Below are positions 14,763 through 56,649 of a stretch of DNA of 64,000 nt, one piece after another (the stretch's first letter is position 1; each line of letters starts with the position of its first letter). The notes below the pieces were generated by a model. It was not told the origin of the DNA and did no database searches. It saw only the letters and a program-made list of their open reading frames with translations. This DNA is from Planctomycetota bacterium. GTDB taxonomy: Bacteria; Planctomycetota; SZUA-567; H5-PLA8. Location: positions 12,125-76,124 of the forward strand of contig JBBRPR010000042.1 of NCBI GenBank assembly GCA_038227875.1. Reading direction: 5' to 3'. Both the position numbers and the translations under genes were made by a program.

Positions 14763-15905
14763 ATGAAATCGTCGCTGCGGTTGCTGCTGATTGTCGCGAT
14801 CGGCGGAACGCTGATTGCGTTCGCGGCGGTGTATCGGCGCGCGCGGATCGAATCGCAGGGAATTACTCCGCGTCTGCGACCCTTATCGCAAAAGGAAGCT
14901 TTCCGCGCACAGCCTGGGAAGGAGTCGTCGATGAACGAGAACGAACCGATCACGCGGCTGTCGTTTGATGCGGCGACGCTTTTCGCGGAACATCCGCCAC
15001 GCTTGTACAATCGCAACAAGGAAGTCGTGTACGCCAAAGCGTGCCCGCCGGGTTGCGTGCACAGCGGCACGCTGGAATTCACGCGCTGGCGCGAGATGAA
15101 ACTGCCCGAGCAGATCCCCGCGGCCGCGCCGAAAATCGAACCGCGAATCGACATCTACGGCTACGAAAAAAACGTGCCGGGATACTCCGAATGGTACGTG
15201 AACTTCGCCGATGAGCATCTCTTCGCCTACTATGGTGGTTCGCTCCTGGCGCAGGATGAATTGCAGGTCGCGGAGCACCCGGGCCTTGGCGCGTTGCGCG
15301 AAGCGCTGCTGACGAAGGGACTTGAATTCGGCACGTACCAGGATTTCCGGCCGACGCCAGTGCTCGTCAAGGGCGTAGAGCGGCGCTGTGCGTTGTCGCT
15401 CGGTGTGGATTCCTCGCAAGATCGCCCGCGTGGATTGTATGGGAACAATTTCGGCGCGGCGCCGGTGGTGGCCATTGAGAAGGCAATCCGCGTGATCGAG
15501 CCGCCGAGCGTGTCGAACATCATCGCCATCGCCGCGCCGTCAGGCGGAAGCGGCGCTTACACGGTCGAAGAAATCGAACTGATTCTGGCGACGGCGTACA
15601 CAGGCTTTCGCGCGGCGAAGTTGGAATCAAAAGATCCGGTAATTGTTCACACGGGGTTCTGGGGCTGCGGCGCGTTCGGTGGGAATCGGCAACTGATGGC
15701 GATGTTGCAAGTGCTTGCCGCTCGACTGGCGCATGTGGACAGCGTCGTCTTTCACACGTTCGATGCCAGCGGGCTGAAGCGGTTTGAAAGTGCGCAAGCA
15801 ACTCTTGATCGATTGCTCGCGCAAGAACCGCCGCCGAATATCGCAGCGTTGATTCAGGAAATTCAAAAGCTGGATTACGAATGGGGCATCAGCGACGGCA
15901 ATTAA
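14763..15905 (+). CDS. Poly(ADP-ribose) glycohydrolase (PARG)-like macrodomain protein
   Basis: YVNFAD, GGSLLAQDE, and VHTGFWGCGAFGGN (canonical PARG TGNWGCGAFGG). Alternative start ATG 14931 with AGGAG. Confidence 0.75.
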   Translation: MKSSLRLLLIVAIGGTLIAFAAVYRRARIESQGITPRLRPLSQKEAFRAQPGKESSMNENEPITRLSFDAATLFAEHPPRLYNRNKEVVYAKACPPGCVHSGTLEFTRWREMKLPEQIPAAAPKIEPRIDIYGYEKNVPGYSEWYVNFADEHLFAYYGGSLLAQDELQVAEHPGLGALREALLTKGLEFGTYQDFRPTPVLVKGVERRCALSLGVDSSQDRPRGLYGNNFGAAPVVAIEKAIRVIEPPSVSNIIAIAAPSGGSGAYTVEEIELILATAYTGFRAAKLESKDPVIVHTGFWGCGAFGGNRQLMAMLQVLAARLAHVDSVVFHTFDASGLKRFESAQATLDRLLAQEPPPNIAALIQEIQKLDYEWGISDGN

Positions 15906-49073: not shown

Positions 49074-49721
49074 TCAGGCATGTGCGCCCCCAAGATTGGC
49101 GCGGGCGTGCGCGCGGAAGGCGCGGTCGATGGGGATGGTGGGGAGAACGACTTGAGCGACGAAAGTAAAGATCGTTAGGAGCGAGATGTACGCGAGGTGT
49201 TCCTTGCTCTGAGACCTGCCCGGAAAAAAATATGGAGTGTTGCTTAGGTACCAGTGAAGAGTTTCGAACACACTGGGAAGTACGCCCATAATCGCCAGCA
49301 AGATGCATCGAGCTCTGGAACACGTTGCGCGATAAAGGACGCACAGCAAAAATCCGAGCATGGAAGCTTGTACCAGGGTCGGAAAGACTTCGTAGATGAG
49401 CAGGGCGGTCCTAAATTGGACAATTCCTTTTGTCAGCGGAAAAACATTGAACTGAATGACGCAAGTCACCCCGGTAAGCGCCATTGCCATCGCCCCTGTC
49501 CGAAGAAATGCGGATGCGTTTCGTACGCAAAGCAGCGGACCGCTCAACAACAAGAAGCAAATCAGAAATTGCTTAACGCAATGAAGAAAGGCAACACTGA
49601 ACCAGACATGATATTGGAAATGCCAAAATACTCTGTCCACAGCCGCTGCCAGCGCCCCCGACAACAGCGCACACGCCAGCGGCGTGCGGAACAGTCCAGC
49701 CGGCGGATTCGCGTCAGGCAT
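49074..49721 (-). CDS. Hypothetical multi-pass membrane protein (tandem paralogue A)
   Basis: About 6 hydrophobic segments; termini shared with the neighbouring gene. Confidence 0.75.
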   Translation of the reverse strand: MPDANPPAGLFRTPLACALLSGALAAAVDRVFWHFQYHVWFSVAFLHCVKQFLICFLLLSGPLLCVRNASAFLRTGAMAMALTGVTCVIQFNVFPLTKGIVQFRTALLIYEVFPTLVQASMLGFLLCVLYRATCSRARCILLAIMGVLPSVFETLHWYLSNTPYFFPGRSQSKEHLAYISLLTIFTFVAQVVLPTIPIDRAFRAHARANLGGAHA

Positions 49722-50340
49722 GCGCGTCGCCCGGGTTGGCGCTCGCCTGCGCGCGGAACTCGCGGTCGATCGGCAGCGTGGGCAGCGCCACCTGGATGAT
49801 CGTCGCGATGTACATCACCATGCTCGACAACGCCAGCGTTTCATCGGAGGCGTTGGGAGTCCGGGAGACGAGTAGCGCAACGGCGCTGGGGAGCGCGCCG
49901 AGGAGGCCCAGGATCGAACACAGACCCATCTTCCCCTTCGCCCGGTAAAGCCATGCCAGCGCTACGCCCAGCATCGAACCTCGCAGCACCGAGACCATGA
50001 CGATGTTTACGGTCGCAGGTGTGTGAGAAAAGAGCGAGCCGATGACCGAGACAAAAACCTGAAACAGGACCGCCAGCACCACCGCGCGCCGCGCCGTCGA
50101 TCCCTGCCGGTCGTAAATTGCCGGGCCGTGCAGTTGAACGGCGGTATACAGAAACCGCTGGCTGAAGCCGAAGACCGCGAAGTGAATCCAGTCGGAACTC
50201 GTGAGGTGCGTGAGCTTGGGTCGGAATGCCCAGCCATAGAGCTGGCTGACTGCCACCGCCAGAGCGCCTGACAACAGCGCGCACGCCAGCGGCGTGCGAA
50301 ATAATCCTTTTTTGGCTGGCGCCTGATCTGATTCAGTCAT
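49714..50340 (-). CDS. Hypothetical multi-pass membrane protein (tandem paralogue B)
   Basis: GLFRTPLACALLSGALA...QVALPTLPIDREFRA; stop overlaps the start of paralogue A. Confidence 0.75.
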   Translation of the reverse strand: MTESDQAPAKKGLFRTPLACALLSGALAVAVSQLYGWAFRPKLTHLTSSDWIHFAVFGFSQRFLYTAVQLHGPAIYDRQGSTARRAVVLAVLFQVFVSVIGSLFSHTPATVNIVMVSVLRGSMLGVALAWLYRAKGKMGLCSILGLLGALPSAVALLVSRTPNASDETLALSSMVMYIATIIQVALPTLPIDREFRAQASANPGDAHA

Positions 50341-52703: not shown

Positions 52704-52836
52704 GCCACGGATGCGCGGATGCTTGAGCGTAGCGAAAGCAGCCGTTCATCCGTGCGTGACGCGCCGCGCGTTTGTGAATCTCACGCACGGATGAACAGCC
52801 ACTTTCGCTACGCTCAAGTGTCTGCGCATCCGTGGC
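52704..52836. repeat. Long imperfect hairpin element (56-bp arms)
   Basis: GCCACGGATGCGCGGATGCTTGAGCGTAGCGAAAG...CTTTCGCTACGCTCAAGTGTCTGCGCATCCGTGGC. Confidence 0.85.
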
Positions 52837-52913
52837 ACCATTCACGCCCCACCACACGGACCCAAAGTCCCGCTGCACTCGTCGCGCGCAACGGCGTGGA
52901 TTACACTGCGCCC

Positions 52914-54281
52914 ATGACTCCCTATCTTCAGGTCATCGCTCAAGAGTGGATGGCACGCGCGGAGGAACTCGCGCAATGGGCGTACGCACACATGGTCAAC
53001 CGGACCGATGTCTGGGGCTCGTACTTGTCCATGGAAAAGCGGCGCGCCAAGGACTGGATGTTCTTCACCGCGCCGTTTCCCGCGGCGCGCGGCAAGCAGT
53101 TCCTCACCAAGGGCATGCTGGCCAAACATTTTTGCGGGCTCGATGGGCATCTCGTCAGTCTCCATTCCACCAGCGCCGACAAAACGTCGCGCTGGCTGGC
53201 GATCGACATCGACAAGCACGACCAGGACGAAGCCGTCTCAGCGGAGAACAACTTCGCCGCGGCGAAAGCGTGGCACGACGTCCTGCAGAAGCTCGGCTTC
53301 GATCCGTTGCTGATGGATTCGAACGGCAACGGCGGTTTTCATGTGCTGATCGTTTTCAGCGAACCGGTGCCGACGGCCGATGTCTTCGCCTTTGGGCAGC
53401 AGATCGTCGGCGATTGGGAAAAACGCGGTCTGGCCAAACTGCCGGAAACGTACCCGAAGCAGGTCAGCATCGAGGAAGGCCATTTCGGAAACTGCCTGCG
53501 GCTGTTCGGGCGACATCACACGCGCGAGCACTTCACGCGCGTCTGGTCCGGCGACGGAGAGGGCGAAACGGAAGGCGAAGAGGCGTGGCTGGAAGGCAAC
53601 AGCGCCATCGATCGGATCCTGACCGTGCAGCTCGCGCGGCCGGAGTTGATTCCCCGCAATCTGCCGCTCCCGGAAAAAAACGAACGGCCCACGACCACCG
53701 TTTCAAAAAAGCAGCGCCCACGCGTCTGCGTGGACCTGGACGAGGTCCTGGCGCAGTACGACGGCTGGAAGGGTCTGGACTTCACCGGCCTGCCGATTCC
53801 CGGCGCCGTGGAGTTCACGCGCAAGCTTTCAGAAATGGCGGACATCGTGATCTTCACCTCGCGCTGCTGCGTCGAAGGCCATCGCGAAGCCTTGAACGAA
53901 CCCAATCGGCCGGCCAGTGACCTCGCGCCGCGCCTGGCGCACAACGTCCGCTACTGGCTGGAGAAGTACGACTTCACGTTTTCGGAAATTTACGTGGGGC
54001 AGGGTAAACCCTTCGCGTCGGCGTACGTCGACGACCGCGCGGTGAGCTGCACGCCGCAGACCGTGCCGCAGGCGTTCTCCGATGCGCTGGAGAAAGTCCG
54101 GAAACTCTGCGGAAACACGCGGCAGTCCGCGCCGAAACCCGCTGAACCGGCGACGGCTCCCGTCGATCCGCAGCTTCAGGCGATCATCGCAGCATGGGGC
54201 ACGTTGACGGAAAAGCAGAAGTCCGATCTCGTCAAAAAAGCTCAGTCGAGCACCCCAAAACGAGCCAAAAAGACCACTTAG
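52914..54281 (+). CDS. TOTE-type archaeo-eukaryotic primase domain fused to a HAD-family phosphatase domain
   Basis: AEP motifs NRTDVW, WLAIDID, DSNGNGGFHVLIVF and YPKQ...FGNCLRL; HAD motifs VCVDLDEVL, IFTSR and KPFASAYVDDRA. Confidence 0.78.
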   Translation: MTPYLQVIAQEWMARAEELAQWAYAHMVNRTDVWGSYLSMEKRRAKDWMFFTAPFPAARGKQFLTKGMLAKHFCGLDGHLVSLHSTSADKTSRWLAIDIDKHDQDEAVSAENNFAAAKAWHDVLQKLGFDPLLMDSNGNGGFHVLIVFSEPVPTADVFAFGQQIVGDWEKRGLAKLPETYPKQVSIEEGHFGNCLRLFGRHHTREHFTRVWSGDGEGETEGEEAWLEGNSAIDRILTVQLARPELIPRNLPLPEKNERPTTTVSKKQRPRVCVDLDEVLAQYDGWKGLDFTGLPIPGAVEFTRKLSEMADIVIFTSRCCVEGHREALNEPNRPASDLAPRLAHNVRYWLEKYDFTFSEIYVGQGKPFASAYVDDRAVSCTPQTVPQAFSDALEKVRKLCGNTRQSAPKPAEPATAPVDPQLQAIIAAWGTLTEKQKSDLVKKAQSSTPKRAKKTT

Positions 54282-56575: not shown

Positions 56576-56649
56576 GGGCGATTAGCTCAGCTGGCTAGAG
56601 CACCAGCTCGACAAGCTGGGGGTCACTGGTTCAAGTCCAGTATCGCCCA
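56576..56649 (+). tRNA. tRNA-Val (GAC), CCA not encoded
   Basis: GGGCGAT/ATCGCCC acceptor stem, TAGCTCAG D-arm, CCAGC-TCGACAA-GCTGG anticodon arm, GGTTCAAGTCC T-arm. Confidence 0.95.

What the first reader, a model, noticed from the sequence alone, without database searches (positions are those of the whole stretch)
52914..54281. Stand-alone fusion of a TOTE-type primase-polymerase and a HAD phosphatase
Seen: intact AEP motifs (DID; SxGxGGFH; GN) joined to a phage-like HAD domain (DLDE, FTSR, KP, YVDDRA), plus a short DPQLQAIIAAW helical tail. There is no helicase, integrase or phage gene nearby. Known: this AEP clade is normally fused to or next to helicases in conflict systems and mobile elements, and HADs of this type remove nucleotide or 3'-phosphates. 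Inference: an end-healing plus gap-filling repair enzyme (conceptually like LigD PE-POL), or a synthesise/erase nucleotide module in defence. I do not recognise this architecture.
Basis: partly seen in the sequence, partly recalled or inferred. Interest (0 to 1): 0.75.

Follow-up and report, generated by a model that had tools for sequence, protein, structure and literature searches.

The report
Primase-polymerase fused to HAD phosphatase
This gene encodes a real, widespread but unstudied bacterial enzyme that joins a DNA primase-polymerase to a small phosphatase, most likely to clean and refill broken DNA before a ligase seals it.

Summary
Window 52914-54281 (+) encodes a 455-aa protein with an N-terminal archaeo-eukaryotic primase-polymerase (Pfam AEP-TOTE, E 8.9e-13). 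A flexible linker joins it to a small capless HAD phosphatase, followed by a two-helix tail. All catalytic residues of both domains are invariant in 74 relatives, and the AlphaFold model is confident (pLDDT 89).

The fusion is not unique to this assembly. At least 553 protein clusters carry it, and 394 stretches in a set of one genome for each of 185,579 species encode a relative. They come from Acidobacteriota, Verrucomicrobiota, Planctomycetota and one Myxococcota MAG. The fusion arose once, inside a clade of mobile-element primase-helicases, after loss of the PriCT and helicase parts.

No phage or plasmid record holds the fusion. The 64-kb window has no mobile-element, helicase or ligase gene.

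The strongest functional clue is new. In 61 of 65 acidobacterial loci an ATP-dependent DNA ligase sits upstream, on the same strand in the 59 loci where its ORF was mapped (median gap 58 nt). This recreates the polymerase, 3'-phosphoesterase and ligase set of LigD, and of mycobacterial Prim-PolC/LigC repair.

The window's own clade lacks that linkage, so its function is inferred by homology. Verdict: a new variant of a known kind of repair toolkit. No activity has been tested.

The parts
52914..54281 (+). Complete gene for the 455-aa AEP-HAD fusion protein (stop at 54279-54281)
   Evidence: The start agrees with the N-termini of relatives. At least 553 homologous clusters exist. AlphaFold mean pLDDT is 89.1.
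52914..53663 (+). Primase-polymerase (AEP) module, residues 1-250. It includes an N-terminal helical extension (E11, W12, N29, R30, W34) and the catalytic core.
   Evidence: Pfam AEP-TOTE E 8.9e-13 over residues 64-197. A profile of 37 AEP halves hits the CAPP Prim-Pol structure 7nqf at E 8.3e-8. Foldseek to 7nqf gives E 2.6e-9 and TM (target) 0.75. The whole 250-aa module recurs in 1874 representative proteins.
53205..53213 (+). AEP motif I, D98-I-D100 (metal-binding Asp pair)
   Evidence: Invariant in 74 of 74. It aligns with the DID of CAPP. The D177A/D179A mutant of CAPP is inactive (PMC8211822, passages read).
53319..53342 (+). AEP motif II, S136-N-G-N-G-G-F-H143
   Evidence: G140 and G141 in 74 of 74, H143 in 73 of 74. 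Aligns with GNRGYH of CAPP.
53442..53516 (+). Third conserved AEP block: P177-E178...P181 and R196..G199.H201
   Evidence: E178, R196, G199 and H201 are in 74 of 74. E178 aligns with the Glu of 'VEIFPKQ' in CAPP. A catalytic role for E178 is inferred, not shown.
53664..53711 (+). Variable, low-confidence interdomain linker (residues about 251-266)
   Evidence: pLDDT is below 50 for residues 257-265. This region is gappy and unconserved in alignment A1.
53712..54119 (+). Small capless HAD phosphatase domain, residues about 267-402
   Evidence: HAD-half profile hits 1xpj at E 2.5e-8. phrog_1238 at E 7.3e-10. Foldseek hits: 1xpj, phage AfhF 9iqw, 2obb, HisB-N, GmhB and T4 Pnkp phosphatase 5uj0. 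BFVD hits include a protein named as a PNKP phosphatase domain and proteins named capsule biosynthesis phosphatase.
53733..53747 (+). HAD motif I, D274-L-D276-E-V278 (nucleophile and general acid/base Asp)
   Evidence: D274, D276 and V278 in 74 of 74. Residue 277 is G in 73 of 74 and E only here.
53856..53864 (+). HAD motif II, T315-S316-R317
   Evidence: T or S at 315 in 74 of 74; R317 in 74 of 74.
54006..54038 (+). HAD motifs III and IV: K365-P366 ... D373-D374-R375
   Evidence: All five residues are in 74 of 74.
54156..54254 (+). C-terminal two-helix tail (DPQLQAIIAAW...), after a second low-confidence linker
   Evidence: Helices 419-430 and 433-445; pLDDT is below 50 for residues 405-414. 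The motif is in the window, L001, L002 and L010, and in 0 of 65 acidobacterial loci. Its function is unknown; a partner-binding role is an inference.
52704..52836 (.). Long hairpin-forming inverted repeat, 78 nt upstream of the ATG. Whether it belongs to the gene is uncertain.
   Evidence: Arms of 56 nt, 89% complementary, with a 21-nt spacer. RNA fold -113.6 kcal/mol, z -13. One copy in the window. Not found upstream of L001.

Best explanation
The gene encodes a chromosomal DNA-repair enzyme with two active sites on one chain.

Proposed mechanism:
1. The capless HAD domain removes a blocking 3'-phosphate from a DNA strand break or gap.
2. The primase-polymerase domain, tethered by a flexible linker, fills the gap from the restored 3'-OH.
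3. A separately encoded ligase seals the nick. In Acidobacteriota this is the ATP-dependent ligase of the same operon. In the window's organism it is an unlinked ligase.

The AEP module was captured from a mobile-element primase-helicase lineage. It lost the PriCT and helicase parts and gained the phosphatase once.

Shown: the two domains, their intact catalytic residues, the single origin, the non-mobile context, and the ligase linkage in one of the two major clades.

Inferred: the substrate of the HAD (DNA 3'-phosphate), gap-filling rather than priming as the main AEP activity, and transfer of the function to the window's clade (about 36-43% identical to the acidobacterial proteins).
For: Domains and active sites:
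- Pfam AEP-TOTE scores above its cut-off.
- The AEP and HAD profiles hit the solved structures 7nqf and 1xpj at E 8.3e-8 and 2.5e-8.
- The model is confident, with two domains joined by a low-confidence linker.
- D98, D100, H102, G140, G141, E178, R196, H201, D274, D276, K365, D373 and D374 are invariant in 74 of 74; H143 is in 73 of 74.
- D at the nucleophile+2 position marks phosphatase-type HADs (established knowledge of the superfamily, recalled).

Ligase linkage:
- A 485-aa ATP-dependent DNA ligase (PF01068 + PF04679, KYDGE adenylation motif invariant) is detected upstream in 61 of 65 acidobacterial loci.
- Its ORF was mapped in 59 loci, always on the same strand, at a median distance of 58 nt. 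In L012 the gap is 10 nt.
- The ligase's best NCBIfam match is the NHEJ ligase domain (E 2.7e-17, far below that model's cut-off).

Precedent:
- LigD joins an AEP, a phosphoesterase and a ligase.
- In the mycobacterial LigC pathway, the 3' end left by FPG is first processed by a 3'-phosphatase and/or 3'-5' exonuclease activity. Prim-PolC then fills the gap and LigC1 seals it (PMC5663958, passages read).
- The closest solved AEP, CAPP, is an active DNA polymerase and primase that works on gapped DNA (PMC8211822, passages read).
- HAD phosphatases that clear linear 3'-phosphates for ligation are described for phage repair systems (PMC7824862, passages read).

Not mobile and not defence:
- No integrase, helicase or phage gene was found among the ORFs scanned in the window.
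- None was found in the 46 neighbouring ORFs scanned, out of 85 listed, around 14 non-acidobacterial loci.
- The only PADLOC hits are a CRISPR-associated PrimPol model (E 2e-6) and a weak RT_UG10_large match (E 0.0028).
- The protein tree follows taxonomy: an acidobacterial clade of 65 and a non-acidobacterial clade of 16 with support 1.0.
- No phage or plasmid record carries the fusion.

Single origin:
- All 11 HAD-bearing tips fall in one clade of 15 (support 0.948). The other 4 tips are short, 225-328 aa.

Weak extra links to repair:
- A protein of about 1000 aa with a PD-(D/E)XK nuclease domain lies beside or one gene from the gene in 3 of 14 non-acidobacterial loci. A HerA-like ATPase lies next to it in 1.
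Against: - No activity has been measured for any member of the family.
- The ligase linkage is confined to Acidobacteriota. None of the 15 non-acidobacterial loci, nor the window, has it within the DNA held. Two of those loci, L009 and L071, have almost no upstream DNA.
- The HAD's nearest structural and sequence relatives are not DNA 3'-phosphatases. They are an uncharacterised V. cholerae HAD, a phage D-arabinose-1,5-diphosphate phosphatase, GmhB, HisB-N and deoxyribonucleotidase-like proteins. T4 Pnkp phosphatase appears only at E 0.032, TM (target) 0.44.
- In two phages the HAD homologue follows a putative thymidylate synthase. That points to nucleotide metabolism.
- The AEP is closer to priming enzymes (CAPP, mobile-element primases) than to the gap-filling LigD Pol (Pfam LigD_Prim-Pol 20.3 bits, cut-off 27.4) or Prim-PolC (Foldseek E 1.2e-3).
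- The window protein alone has E instead of G next to the catalytic Asp (1 of 74). Its effect is unknown.
- The two other conserved operon genes in Acidobacteriota (p203, p237) remain unidentified, so the pathway cannot be named (base excision repair, single-strand-break repair or end joining).
Confidence: 0.55

Rival explanations
1. The phosphatase half acts on small molecules, and the enzyme couples synthesis to nucleotide turnover. The HAD would be a 5'(3')-(deoxy)nucleotidase or sugar-phosphate phosphatase acting on free substrates. Examples are trimming the local nucleotide pool or removing a product of the AEP, rather than healing DNA ends.
For: - The HAD profile gives weak hits to 5'(3')-deoxyribonucleotidases (E 0.056-0.07), and Pfam NT5C scores 0.15.
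- Foldseek hits include a phage D-arabinose-1,5-diphosphate phosphatase, GmhB, HisB-N and a deoxyribonucleotidase-like protein. BFVD hits include 5'-nucleotidases.
- Phage homologues lie directly after a putative thymidylate synthase.
- Many free-standing relatives of 124-142 aa share 42-56% identity with the HAD half.
Against: - A covalent fusion to a DNA polymerase is conserved across three phyla.
- An operon with a DNA ligase in 61 of 65 acidobacterial loci is hard to explain by pool metabolism.
- The domain is capless. By recalled knowledge of the superfamily, that type usually takes macromolecular or bulky substrates.
- A 3'-nucleotidase and a DNA 3'-phosphatase perform the same chemistry, so these similarities do not separate the two readings.
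Confidence: 0.15
2. It is a damage-tolerance or restart primase. The AEP would mainly make primers de novo, as PrimPol-type enzymes do when they reprime, at stalled forks or on single-stranded gaps. The HAD would play an accessory role, such as clearing a blocked 3' end.
For: - The closest solved relative, CAPP, is a true primase as well as a polymerase (PMC8211822, passages read).
- The nearest AEP relatives are replicative primase-helicases of mobile elements.
Against: - The family has lost the PriCT domain (14 of 60 scanned relatives carry PriCT_2 and 3 carry PriCT_1) and every helicase module that its relatives carry.
- The conserved partner in Acidobacteriota is a ligase, which fits gap sealing rather than fork restart.
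Confidence: 0.12
3. It is a component of an anti-phage or conflict system, either TOTE-like or a synthesise-and-erase nucleotide signalling module.
For: - The Pfam family that matches is named for a conflict system.
- PADLOC gives hits to a CRISPR-associated PrimPol model (E 2e-6) and, weakly, to RT_UG10_large of the DRT systems (E 0.0028).
Against: - No further defence-type gene was found next to it among the ORFs scanned in the window, or in the 46 of 85 neighbouring ORFs scanned around 14 related loci. One HerA-like ATPase lies next to it in L004.
- The acidobacterial partners p203, p237 and the ligase give no PADLOC hit.
- The tree follows taxonomy, and p237 is 74-94% identical across the listed relatives. 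This is the pattern of a core gene, not a patchy defence gene.
Confidence: 0.06
4. It is a decaying or domesticated remnant of a mobile-element replication gene with no current function.
For: The AEP clade is rooted among primase-helicases of mobile elements.
Against: - The reading frame is intact and all catalytic residues are invariant in 74 relatives.
- Proteins 38-85% identical are kept at full length across phyla.
- The structure prediction is confident.
Confidence: 0.03

Closest known systems
Bacterial LigD (ligase + AEP polymerase domain + phosphoesterase domain) of non-homologous end joining
   Same: - It has the same logic of three activities: a 3'-end-cleaning phosphoesterase, an AEP polymerase and an ATP-dependent ligase.
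- In Acidobacteriota the ligase is the adjacent gene.
- That ligase's best NCBIfam match is the NHEJ ligase domain.
- Foldseek links the AEP half to LigD Pol (2iru, E 1.9e-4).
   Different: - The AEP belongs to another clade. Pfam LigD_Prim-Pol scores below its cut-off (20.3 against 27.4), and the TM to the target is only 0.34-0.43.
- The phosphoesterase is a HAD, not the LigD PE fold.
- The ligase is a separate protein, and is absent near the window gene.
- No Ku gene was seen among the neighbours scanned.
Mycobacterial Prim-PolC with LigC (excision-repair gap filling; PMC5663958)
   Same: - An AEP gene shares an operon with a core-only ATP-dependent ligase.
- The pathway needs a 3'-phosphatase step before gap filling (passages read). 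Here that step would be built into the polymerase.
   Different: - Prim-PolC has no phosphatase domain.
- It is only a distant structural match (6sa0 E 1.2e-3, 5op0 E 3e-3, TM to target 0.34-0.42).
- The linkage is seen only in the acidobacterial clade.
CRISPR-associated Prim-Pol (CAPP) of Marinitoga (PDB 7nqf, 7nqd, 7p9j)
   Same: - It is the closest solved structure of the AEP half: profile E 8.3e-8, Foldseek E 2.6e-9 with TM to target 0.75-0.78.
- The DID, G-Y/F-H and E-x-F/Y-P-K blocks align.
   Different: - Identity is only 16-18%.
- CAPP sits in CRISPR loci with other domains. Here there is no CRISPR context, and a HAD is attached instead.
Mobile-element and phage primase-helicases carrying the same AEP module (AEP + PriCT + DUF3987, D5_N/DUF5906 or AAA_25)
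   Same: - The full 250-aa AEP module, including its N-terminal extension, is shared at E 1e-54 to 1e-70.
- 51 of 60 scanned relatives also match Pfam AEP-TOTE.
   Different: - Those proteins are 550-1150 aa with PriCT and helicase parts.
- The AEP-HAD clade has neither, and it sits in non-mobile chromosomal contexts.
Polynucleotide kinase-phosphatase (T4 Pnkp, eukaryotic PNKP): HAD-type DNA 3'-phosphatase
   Same: - It has a small capless HAD fold with a DxDxT/V nucleophile motif and is used for end healing before ligation.
- Foldseek to T4 Pnkp phosphatase 5uj0 gives probability 0.99.
- A BFVD protein named as a PNKP phosphatase domain matches at E 1.4e-4, TM to target 0.56.
   Different: - The protein has no kinase domain.
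- The similarity is weaker than to 1xpj and to sugar-phosphate HADs (5uj0 E 0.032, TM to target 0.44).
- No PNKP family model matched by sequence.

Membership tests
Archaeo-eukaryotic primase (AEP / Prim-Pol) superfamily | Motif I DxD (metal ligands) | tested here: met
   D98 and D100 are in 74 of 74 and align with the DID of CAPP.
Archaeo-eukaryotic primase (AEP / Prim-Pol) superfamily | Motif II with conserved His (nucleotide binding) | tested here: met
   G140-G141-x-H143; His in 73 of 74. It aligns with GYH of CAPP.
Archaeo-eukaryotic primase (AEP / Prim-Pol) superfamily | Motif III, the third acidic metal ligand | tested here: inconclusive
   E178 is invariant and aligns with the Glu of VEIFPKQ in CAPP. 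I did not verify that this Glu is the catalytic residue in CAPP.
Archaeo-eukaryotic primase (AEP / Prim-Pol) superfamily | AEP catalytic fold | tested here: met
   Foldseek to CAPP gives E 2.6e-9 and TM to target 0.75-0.78. LigD Pol, Prim-PolC, phage S-2L PrimPol and human PrimPol also match.
Pfam PF22548 AEP-TOTE (domain family) | Score above the curated gathering cut-off | tested here: met
   48.8 bits against 27. The precomputed Pfam column lists PF22548 for most relatives.
TOTE conflict system (as a system) | Presence of the other components of the system next to the AEP | not testable with these tools
   I could not retrieve a definition. Three paper searches gave 0 papers, and the term does not occur in eLife 2020;9:e52696. 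No helicase or NTPase neighbour was found among the window ORFs scanned, and PADLOC gave only a PrimPol and a weak RT_UG10_large match.
HAD (haloacid dehalogenase-like) phosphatase superfamily | Motif I DxDx(T/V), with Asp nucleophile and Asp at +2 | tested here: met
   D274, D276 and V278 are in 74 of 74.
HAD (haloacid dehalogenase-like) phosphatase superfamily | Motif II Ser/Thr, motif III Lys, motif IV acidic pair | tested here: met
   T or S at 315 in 74 of 74; K365, D373 and D374 in 74 of 74.
HAD (haloacid dehalogenase-like) phosphatase superfamily | Rossmannoid HAD fold, or a significant profile match | tested here: met
   Profile to 1xpj at E 2.5e-8. Foldseek to 1xpj, 9iqw, 2obb, 2fpr, 3l8h and 5uj0. 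No Pfam HAD model reaches its cut-off.
LigD | LigD-type polymerase domain (Pfam LigD_Prim-Pol / TIGR02778) | tested here: not met
   20.3 bits against a cut-off of 27.4; TIGR02778 scores 18.2 against 214.7.
LigD | LigD phosphoesterase (PE) domain, and a ligase domain in the same protein or operon, with Ku | tested here: not met
   No PE or ligase domain is in the protein. No ligase is in the window. A ligase is adjacent only in acidobacterial relatives. Ku was not seen among the neighbours scanned.
Polynucleotide kinase-phosphatase (PNKP / T4 Pnkp) | P-loop 5'-kinase domain | tested here: not met
   No kinase domain appears in Pfam or NCBIfam or in the model.
Polynucleotide kinase-phosphatase (PNKP / T4 Pnkp) | HAD-type DNA 3'-phosphatase domain | tested here: inconclusive
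   Fold-level match only: 5uj0 at E 0.032, TM to target 0.44, and a BFVD PNKP-phosphatase-named protein at E 1.4e-4. Activity on DNA is untested.
Prim-PolC / LigC excision-repair pair | AEP gene in an operon with a core-only ATP-dependent ligase | tested here: not met
   Not met for the window or its clade (0 of 15 loci, and not in the window). Met for 61 of 65 acidobacterial relatives. Sequence and structure similarity to Prim-PolC is only distant.

The most novel reading that the evidence does not exclude
The family marks an unrecognised, vertically inherited strand-break repair pathway of Acidobacteriota, Verrucomicrobiota and Planctomycetota. In it, a primase domesticated from a mobile element and fused to a PNKP-like HAD 3'-phosphatase replaces both the polymerase and the phosphoesterase of LigD. 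In Acidobacteriota it would work as a four-protein machine. The partners would be a dedicated ATP-dependent ligase and two proteins of no known family (p203 with an acidic tail, and p237). These two could be the end-binding or damage-recognition factors, standing where Ku or a glycosylase stands elsewhere. The C-terminal helical tail of the window's clade would be the docking site for an unlinked partner.
Probability: 0.3. Interest if true: 0.72.

Novelty: new variant of a known kind. Interest (0 to 1): 0.6.

Why it matters
Bacterial end healing and gap filling are known mainly from LigD/Ku and from mycobacterial Prim-PolC/LigC. Large environmental phyla such as Acidobacteriota, Verrucomicrobiota and Planctomycetota are almost unexplored in this respect.

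This family would show a second, independent way to assemble the polymerase, 3'-phosphatase and ligase toolkit. It starts from a mobile-element primase and a HAD phosphatase, the same phosphatase type that eukaryotic PNKP uses.

The prediction is directly testable with two point mutants and standard oligonucleotide substrates. The work also points to two strongly conserved proteins of unknown fold that may be new DNA-repair factors. A compact enzyme that removes 3'-phosphates and fills gaps could also be a useful reagent.

Tried and rejected
- Literature. Searches for 'TOTE' with primase or conflict terms returned 0 papers. The term is absent from eLife 2020;9:e52696. Two searches for a Prim-Pol/HAD fusion found no description of it. 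The Antarctic repair-enzyme paper PMC10140301 (passages read) does not mention it. The claim 'not in print' rests on these searches only; subscription journals are not covered.\n- p237 and p203. There were no Pfam, NCBIfam, PADLOC or PHROG hits and no PDB profile hits. The Atlas gave only sub-0.9 leads or nothing. The AlphaFold model of p237 was unusable (pLDDT 49) and was not searched.\n- Ligase C-terminal extension. A resemblance I recalled to a break-sensing domain was not supported by Pfam, so I dropped it.\n- Upstream hairpin. Rfam gave only sub-threshold plant microRNA-precursor look-alikes, which I read as an artefact of any long hairpin. The promoter and terminator scans were no better than shuffles.\n- Complex prediction of the acidobacterial ligase with its AEP-HAD was not available, so nothing was folded.\n- Prophage or plasmid origin is rejected. 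Only the HAD half matches, in 4 phage and 2 plasmid records.\n- Assembly artefact or unique fusion is rejected.\n- Unchecked. The neighbourhoods of the closest relatives (54-85% identity, P0003-P0026) therefore could not be seen. Only one close locus, L001 (63% identical), was available.
Full report
**What is there.**
The + strand is open from 52719 to 54281. That start matches the N-termini of the closest relatives. A 496-aa database version of the same protein (P0002) begins further upstream, inside a long hairpin, and is probably over-extended.

- Pfam places residues 64-197 in the AEP-TOTE primase-polymerase family (E 8.9e-13; 48.8 bits against a cut-off of 27).
- The LigD polymerase model scores below its cut-off (20.3 against 27.4).
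- NCBIfam gives only sub-threshold Prim-Pol, LigD-pol and 'capsule biosynthesis phosphatase' matches.

**The phosphatase half.**
Single-sequence evidence for the HAD was weak, so I tested it with profiles.
- A profile of 34 HAD halves taken from related loci (A3) hits the HAD-like structure 1xpj at E 2.5e-8. It hits 5'(3')-deoxyribonucleotidases at about 0.06.
- A phage family, phrog_1238, covers residues 262-395 at E 7.3e-10.
- In a 74-sequence alignment (A2) the four HAD motifs are invariant: D274, D276, V278, T/S315, K365, D373 and D374.
- One oddity: residue 277, next to the catalytic Asp, is G in 73 of 74 and E only in the window protein. From memory, the FCP/SCP phosphatases carry DLDET at this place, so a Glu there need not inactivate a HAD. 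That is recalled, not tested.

**The polymerase half.**
- D98, D100, H102, G140, G141, E178, R196, G199 and H201 are in 74 of 74, and H143 in 73 of 74.
- A profile of 37 AEP halves (A4) hits the CRISPR-associated Prim-Pol (CAPP) structure 7nqf at E 8.3e-8, with the DID, GYH and E-x-F-P-K blocks in register.
- CAPPs are active DNA polymerases and primases that also act on gapped DNA. Their DxD-to-AxA mutants are dead (PMC8211822, passages read).

**Structure.**
AlphaFold with A2 gave mean pLDDT 89.1 and pTM 0.63.
- It shows two well-defined domains separated by a low-confidence linker (residues 257-265).
- A second floppy segment (405-414) leads to two C-terminal helices.
- Foldseek against the PDB ranks CAPP first (E 2.6e-9; TM to target 0.75-0.78). 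LigD polymerase domains follow (E 1.9e-4 and weaker), then Prim-PolC (E 1.2e-3).
- For the HAD half it finds 1xpj, the phage D-arabinose-1,5-diphosphate phosphatase AfhF, BT_0820, HisB-N, GmhB, and T4 Pnkp 3'-phosphatase at E 0.032.
- Against viral models, the AEP half resembles phage primase-helicases.
- The HAD half resembles small phage HADs named PNKP phosphatase domain, capsule biosynthesis phosphatase or 5'-nucleotidase.

**Census.**
- The word-indexed protein search found 553 proteins at E <= 0.001 among 7999 scored candidates (a capped list). The 120 listed cover nearly the full length at 38-100% identity. Where named at all, they are 'hypothetical protein' from Planctomycetota, Verrucomicrobiota and Pyrinomonadaceae. 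All 120 carry the HAD domain by my HMM.
- In a set of one genome for each of 185,579 species, 448 stretches matched the patterns and 394 encode a relative. The best 80 loci were kept: 65 Acidobacteriota, 13 Verrucomicrobiota, one Planctomycetota (L001, 63% identical) and one Sandaracinaceae MAG.
- An exhaustive profile search with the AEP half found 1874 representatives at E <= 0.001 and 682 at E <= 1e-30. Only 10 of the 150 listed carry the HAD.
- I scanned 60 of those 150 with Pfam. 14 have PriCT_2, 3 PriCT_1, 8 DUF3987, 5 AAA_25, 2 D5_N and 3 DUF5906, and 51 match AEP-TOTE. These are the usual primase-helicases of mobile elements and phages.
- In a tree of 148 AEP domains, the 11 HAD-bearing tips fall in one clade of 15 (support 0.948). 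Its 4 other tips are short proteins of 225-328 aa, probably fragments.
- So the fusion arose once, from a mobile-element primase lineage that shed PriCT and helicase.

**Context in the window.**
The flanking genes are:
- a D-lyxose isomerase and a TrpD-like phosphoribosyltransferase (divergent, upstream);
- a CsbD-like protein;
- a LysM protein, a YCII protein, DUF4870, tRNA-Val and a rhamnosidase.

A scan of 37 further ORFs across the window found transporters, oxidoreductases, a sigma factor and similar genes. It found no integrase, helicase, phage gene or ligase. G+C is even across the window. No phage record (4 of 50,697 match, HAD half only) and no plasmid record (2 of 72,556, HAD half only) carries the fusion.

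**Context in relatives: the key result.**
I clustered all ORFs within 6 kb of the gene in 80 loci plus the window. This showed three conserved upstream genes, all on the same strand.
- A 485-aa protein in 59 loci, at a median distance of 58 nt.
- A 237-aa protein in 52 loci.
- A 203-aa protein in 44 loci.

The first is an ATP-dependent DNA ligase (PF01068 E 9.1e-13, PF04679 E 4.4e-8). Its KYDGE adenylation motif is invariant. Its best NCBIfam match is the NHEJ ligase domain, far below that model's cut-off.

By tblastn the ligase is present in 61 loci, all acidobacterial (61 of 65).
- The four misses are L018, L053, L073, and L077 with only about 1 kb of upstream DNA.
- It is present in none of the 15 non-acidobacterial loci, nor in the window.
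- The genes are tightly packed. In L012, p237 overlaps the ligase start, and the AEP-HAD starts 10 nt after the ligase stop.
- In L040 a DNA methylase cassette has been inserted between the ligase and the AEP-HAD.

Around the 14 non-acidobacterial loci examined, I scanned 46 of the 85 ORFs listed. The neighbours vary and are housekeeping.
- A protein of about 1000 aa with a PD-(D/E)XK nuclease domain lies nearby in 3 loci.
- A HerA-like ATPase lies next to the gene in 1 locus.

The protein tree splits into an acidobacterial clade (65 tips, support 0.574) and a clade of all others including the window (16 tips, support 1.0). The C-terminal helical tail occurs only in the latter: the window, L001, L002 and L010.

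**Mechanism.**
A polymerase tethered to a phosphatase, next to a ligase, reproduces the three activities of LigD.
- In mycobacterial LigC repair, the 3' end left by FPG is processed by a 3'-phosphatase and/or 3'-5' exonuclease activity. Prim-PolC then fills the gap and LigC1 seals it (PMC5663958, passages read).
- HAD phosphatases that remove linear 3'-phosphates ahead of ligation are described for phage repair systems (PMC7824862, passages read).
- I therefore propose that the HAD removes a 3'-phosphate, the AEP fills in, and a ligase seals.
- What is shown is the architecture, the intact active sites, the single origin, the non-mobile context and the ligase linkage in one clade.
- What is inferred is the HAD substrate, the preference for gap filling over priming, and the transfer to the window's clade. 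That clade is about 36-43% identical to the acidobacterial proteins.

**Against this reading.**
- The HAD's closest relatives are uncharacterised or small-molecule phosphatases, and the match to T4 Pnkp is weak.
- Two phage homologues sit right after a putative thymidylate synthase.
- Free-standing HADs of 124-142 aa with 42-56% identity are common.
- The AEP is nearer to true primases than to LigD Pol.
- The window's clade has no linked ligase.
- These points keep a nucleotidase reading and a repriming reading alive.
- A defence reading has little support. PADLOC gives only a CRISPR-associated PrimPol match and a weak RT_UG10_large match. p237 is 74-94% identical across its listed relatives, which is core-gene behaviour.

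**Known or new.**
- The protein is a member of the AEP and HAD superfamilies and of the Pfam AEP-TOTE domain family.
- It is not a LigD, a PNKP or a Prim-PolC by their defining features.
- I found no paper describing the fusion or the acidobacterial operon.
- I could not retrieve what defines a 'TOTE' system.
- I rate it a new variant of a known kind of repair toolkit.

**Limits.**
- p203 and p237 remain unidentified after family, structure-sequence and Atlas searches and one failed fold.

Noticed in passing
window 52704-52836: A long inverted repeat lies in the divergent intergenic region, 78 nt before the ATG of the AEP-HAD gene. It has 56-nt arms, 89% complementary, with a 21-nt spacer. As RNA it folds at -113.6 kcal/mol (z -13). 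There is a single copy in the window, and it is absent upstream of the closest locus L001. Rfam gives only sub-threshold microRNA-precursor look-alikes. Its function is unknown.
   Followed up: partly
window 52791-54281: The database version of this protein (P0002, 496 aa) starts 41 codons upstream of the start used by relatives, inside the hairpin. It is probably an over-extended gene call.
   Followed up: partly
window 53742-53744 (residue 277): The window protein has Glu where 73 of 74 relatives have Gly, directly after the second catalytic Asp of the HAD motif I. This could alter activity or be tolerated.
   Followed up: no
L012:7156-9943 and 43-51 other acidobacterial loci: A conserved operon reads p203, p237, ATP-dependent ligase, AEP-HAD. 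p203 ends in an acidic tail. p237 is 74-94% identical across its 120 listed relatives. Neither matches any family or solved structure.
   Followed up: partly
L012:9671-9940 (ligase residues about 395-485): The linked ligase carries a conserved C-terminal extension of about 90 aa, with an invariant W-K-T-N-K and a terminal G-W-E. It has no Pfam match.
   Followed up: partly
L040:7870-9716: A 312-aa ORF plus an N6/N4 DNA methylase is inserted between the ligase and the AEP-HAD gene in this one locus. It looks like a mobile modification cassette.
   Followed up: partly
L081:3974-4642 and L082:3986-4666: The phage homologues of the HAD half (Vibrio phage VA-RY-3, Cronobacter phage Ss1) lie directly after a putative thymidylate synthase, in the replication and nucleotide-metabolism module.
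   Followed up: partly
L005:6922-9909, L008:6926-9880, L021:1877-4933: Proteins of about 1000 aa with a PD-(D/E)XK nuclease domain lie divergently beside, or one gene from, the AEP-HAD gene in three verrucomicrobial loci. In L008 a calcineurin-like phosphoesterase lies two ORFs beyond the nuclease gene.
   Followed up: no
window 49074-49721 and 49714-50340 (- strand): Two adjacent ORFs of 215 and 208 aa share near-identical N-terminal (FRTPLACALLSGALA) and C-terminal (LPT.PIDR.FRA.A.AN.G.AHA) stretches. They are a tandem duplication of a hydrophobic protein with no Pfam match.
   Followed up: no
window 14763-15902: An ORF matches the macro-domain part of poly(ADP-ribose) glycohydrolase (PF05028, E 8.8e-15).
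   Followed up: no
window 56576-56649: tRNA-Val (GAC) is the only tRNA in the window. No integrase or repeat suggests an integration site.
   Followed up: partly
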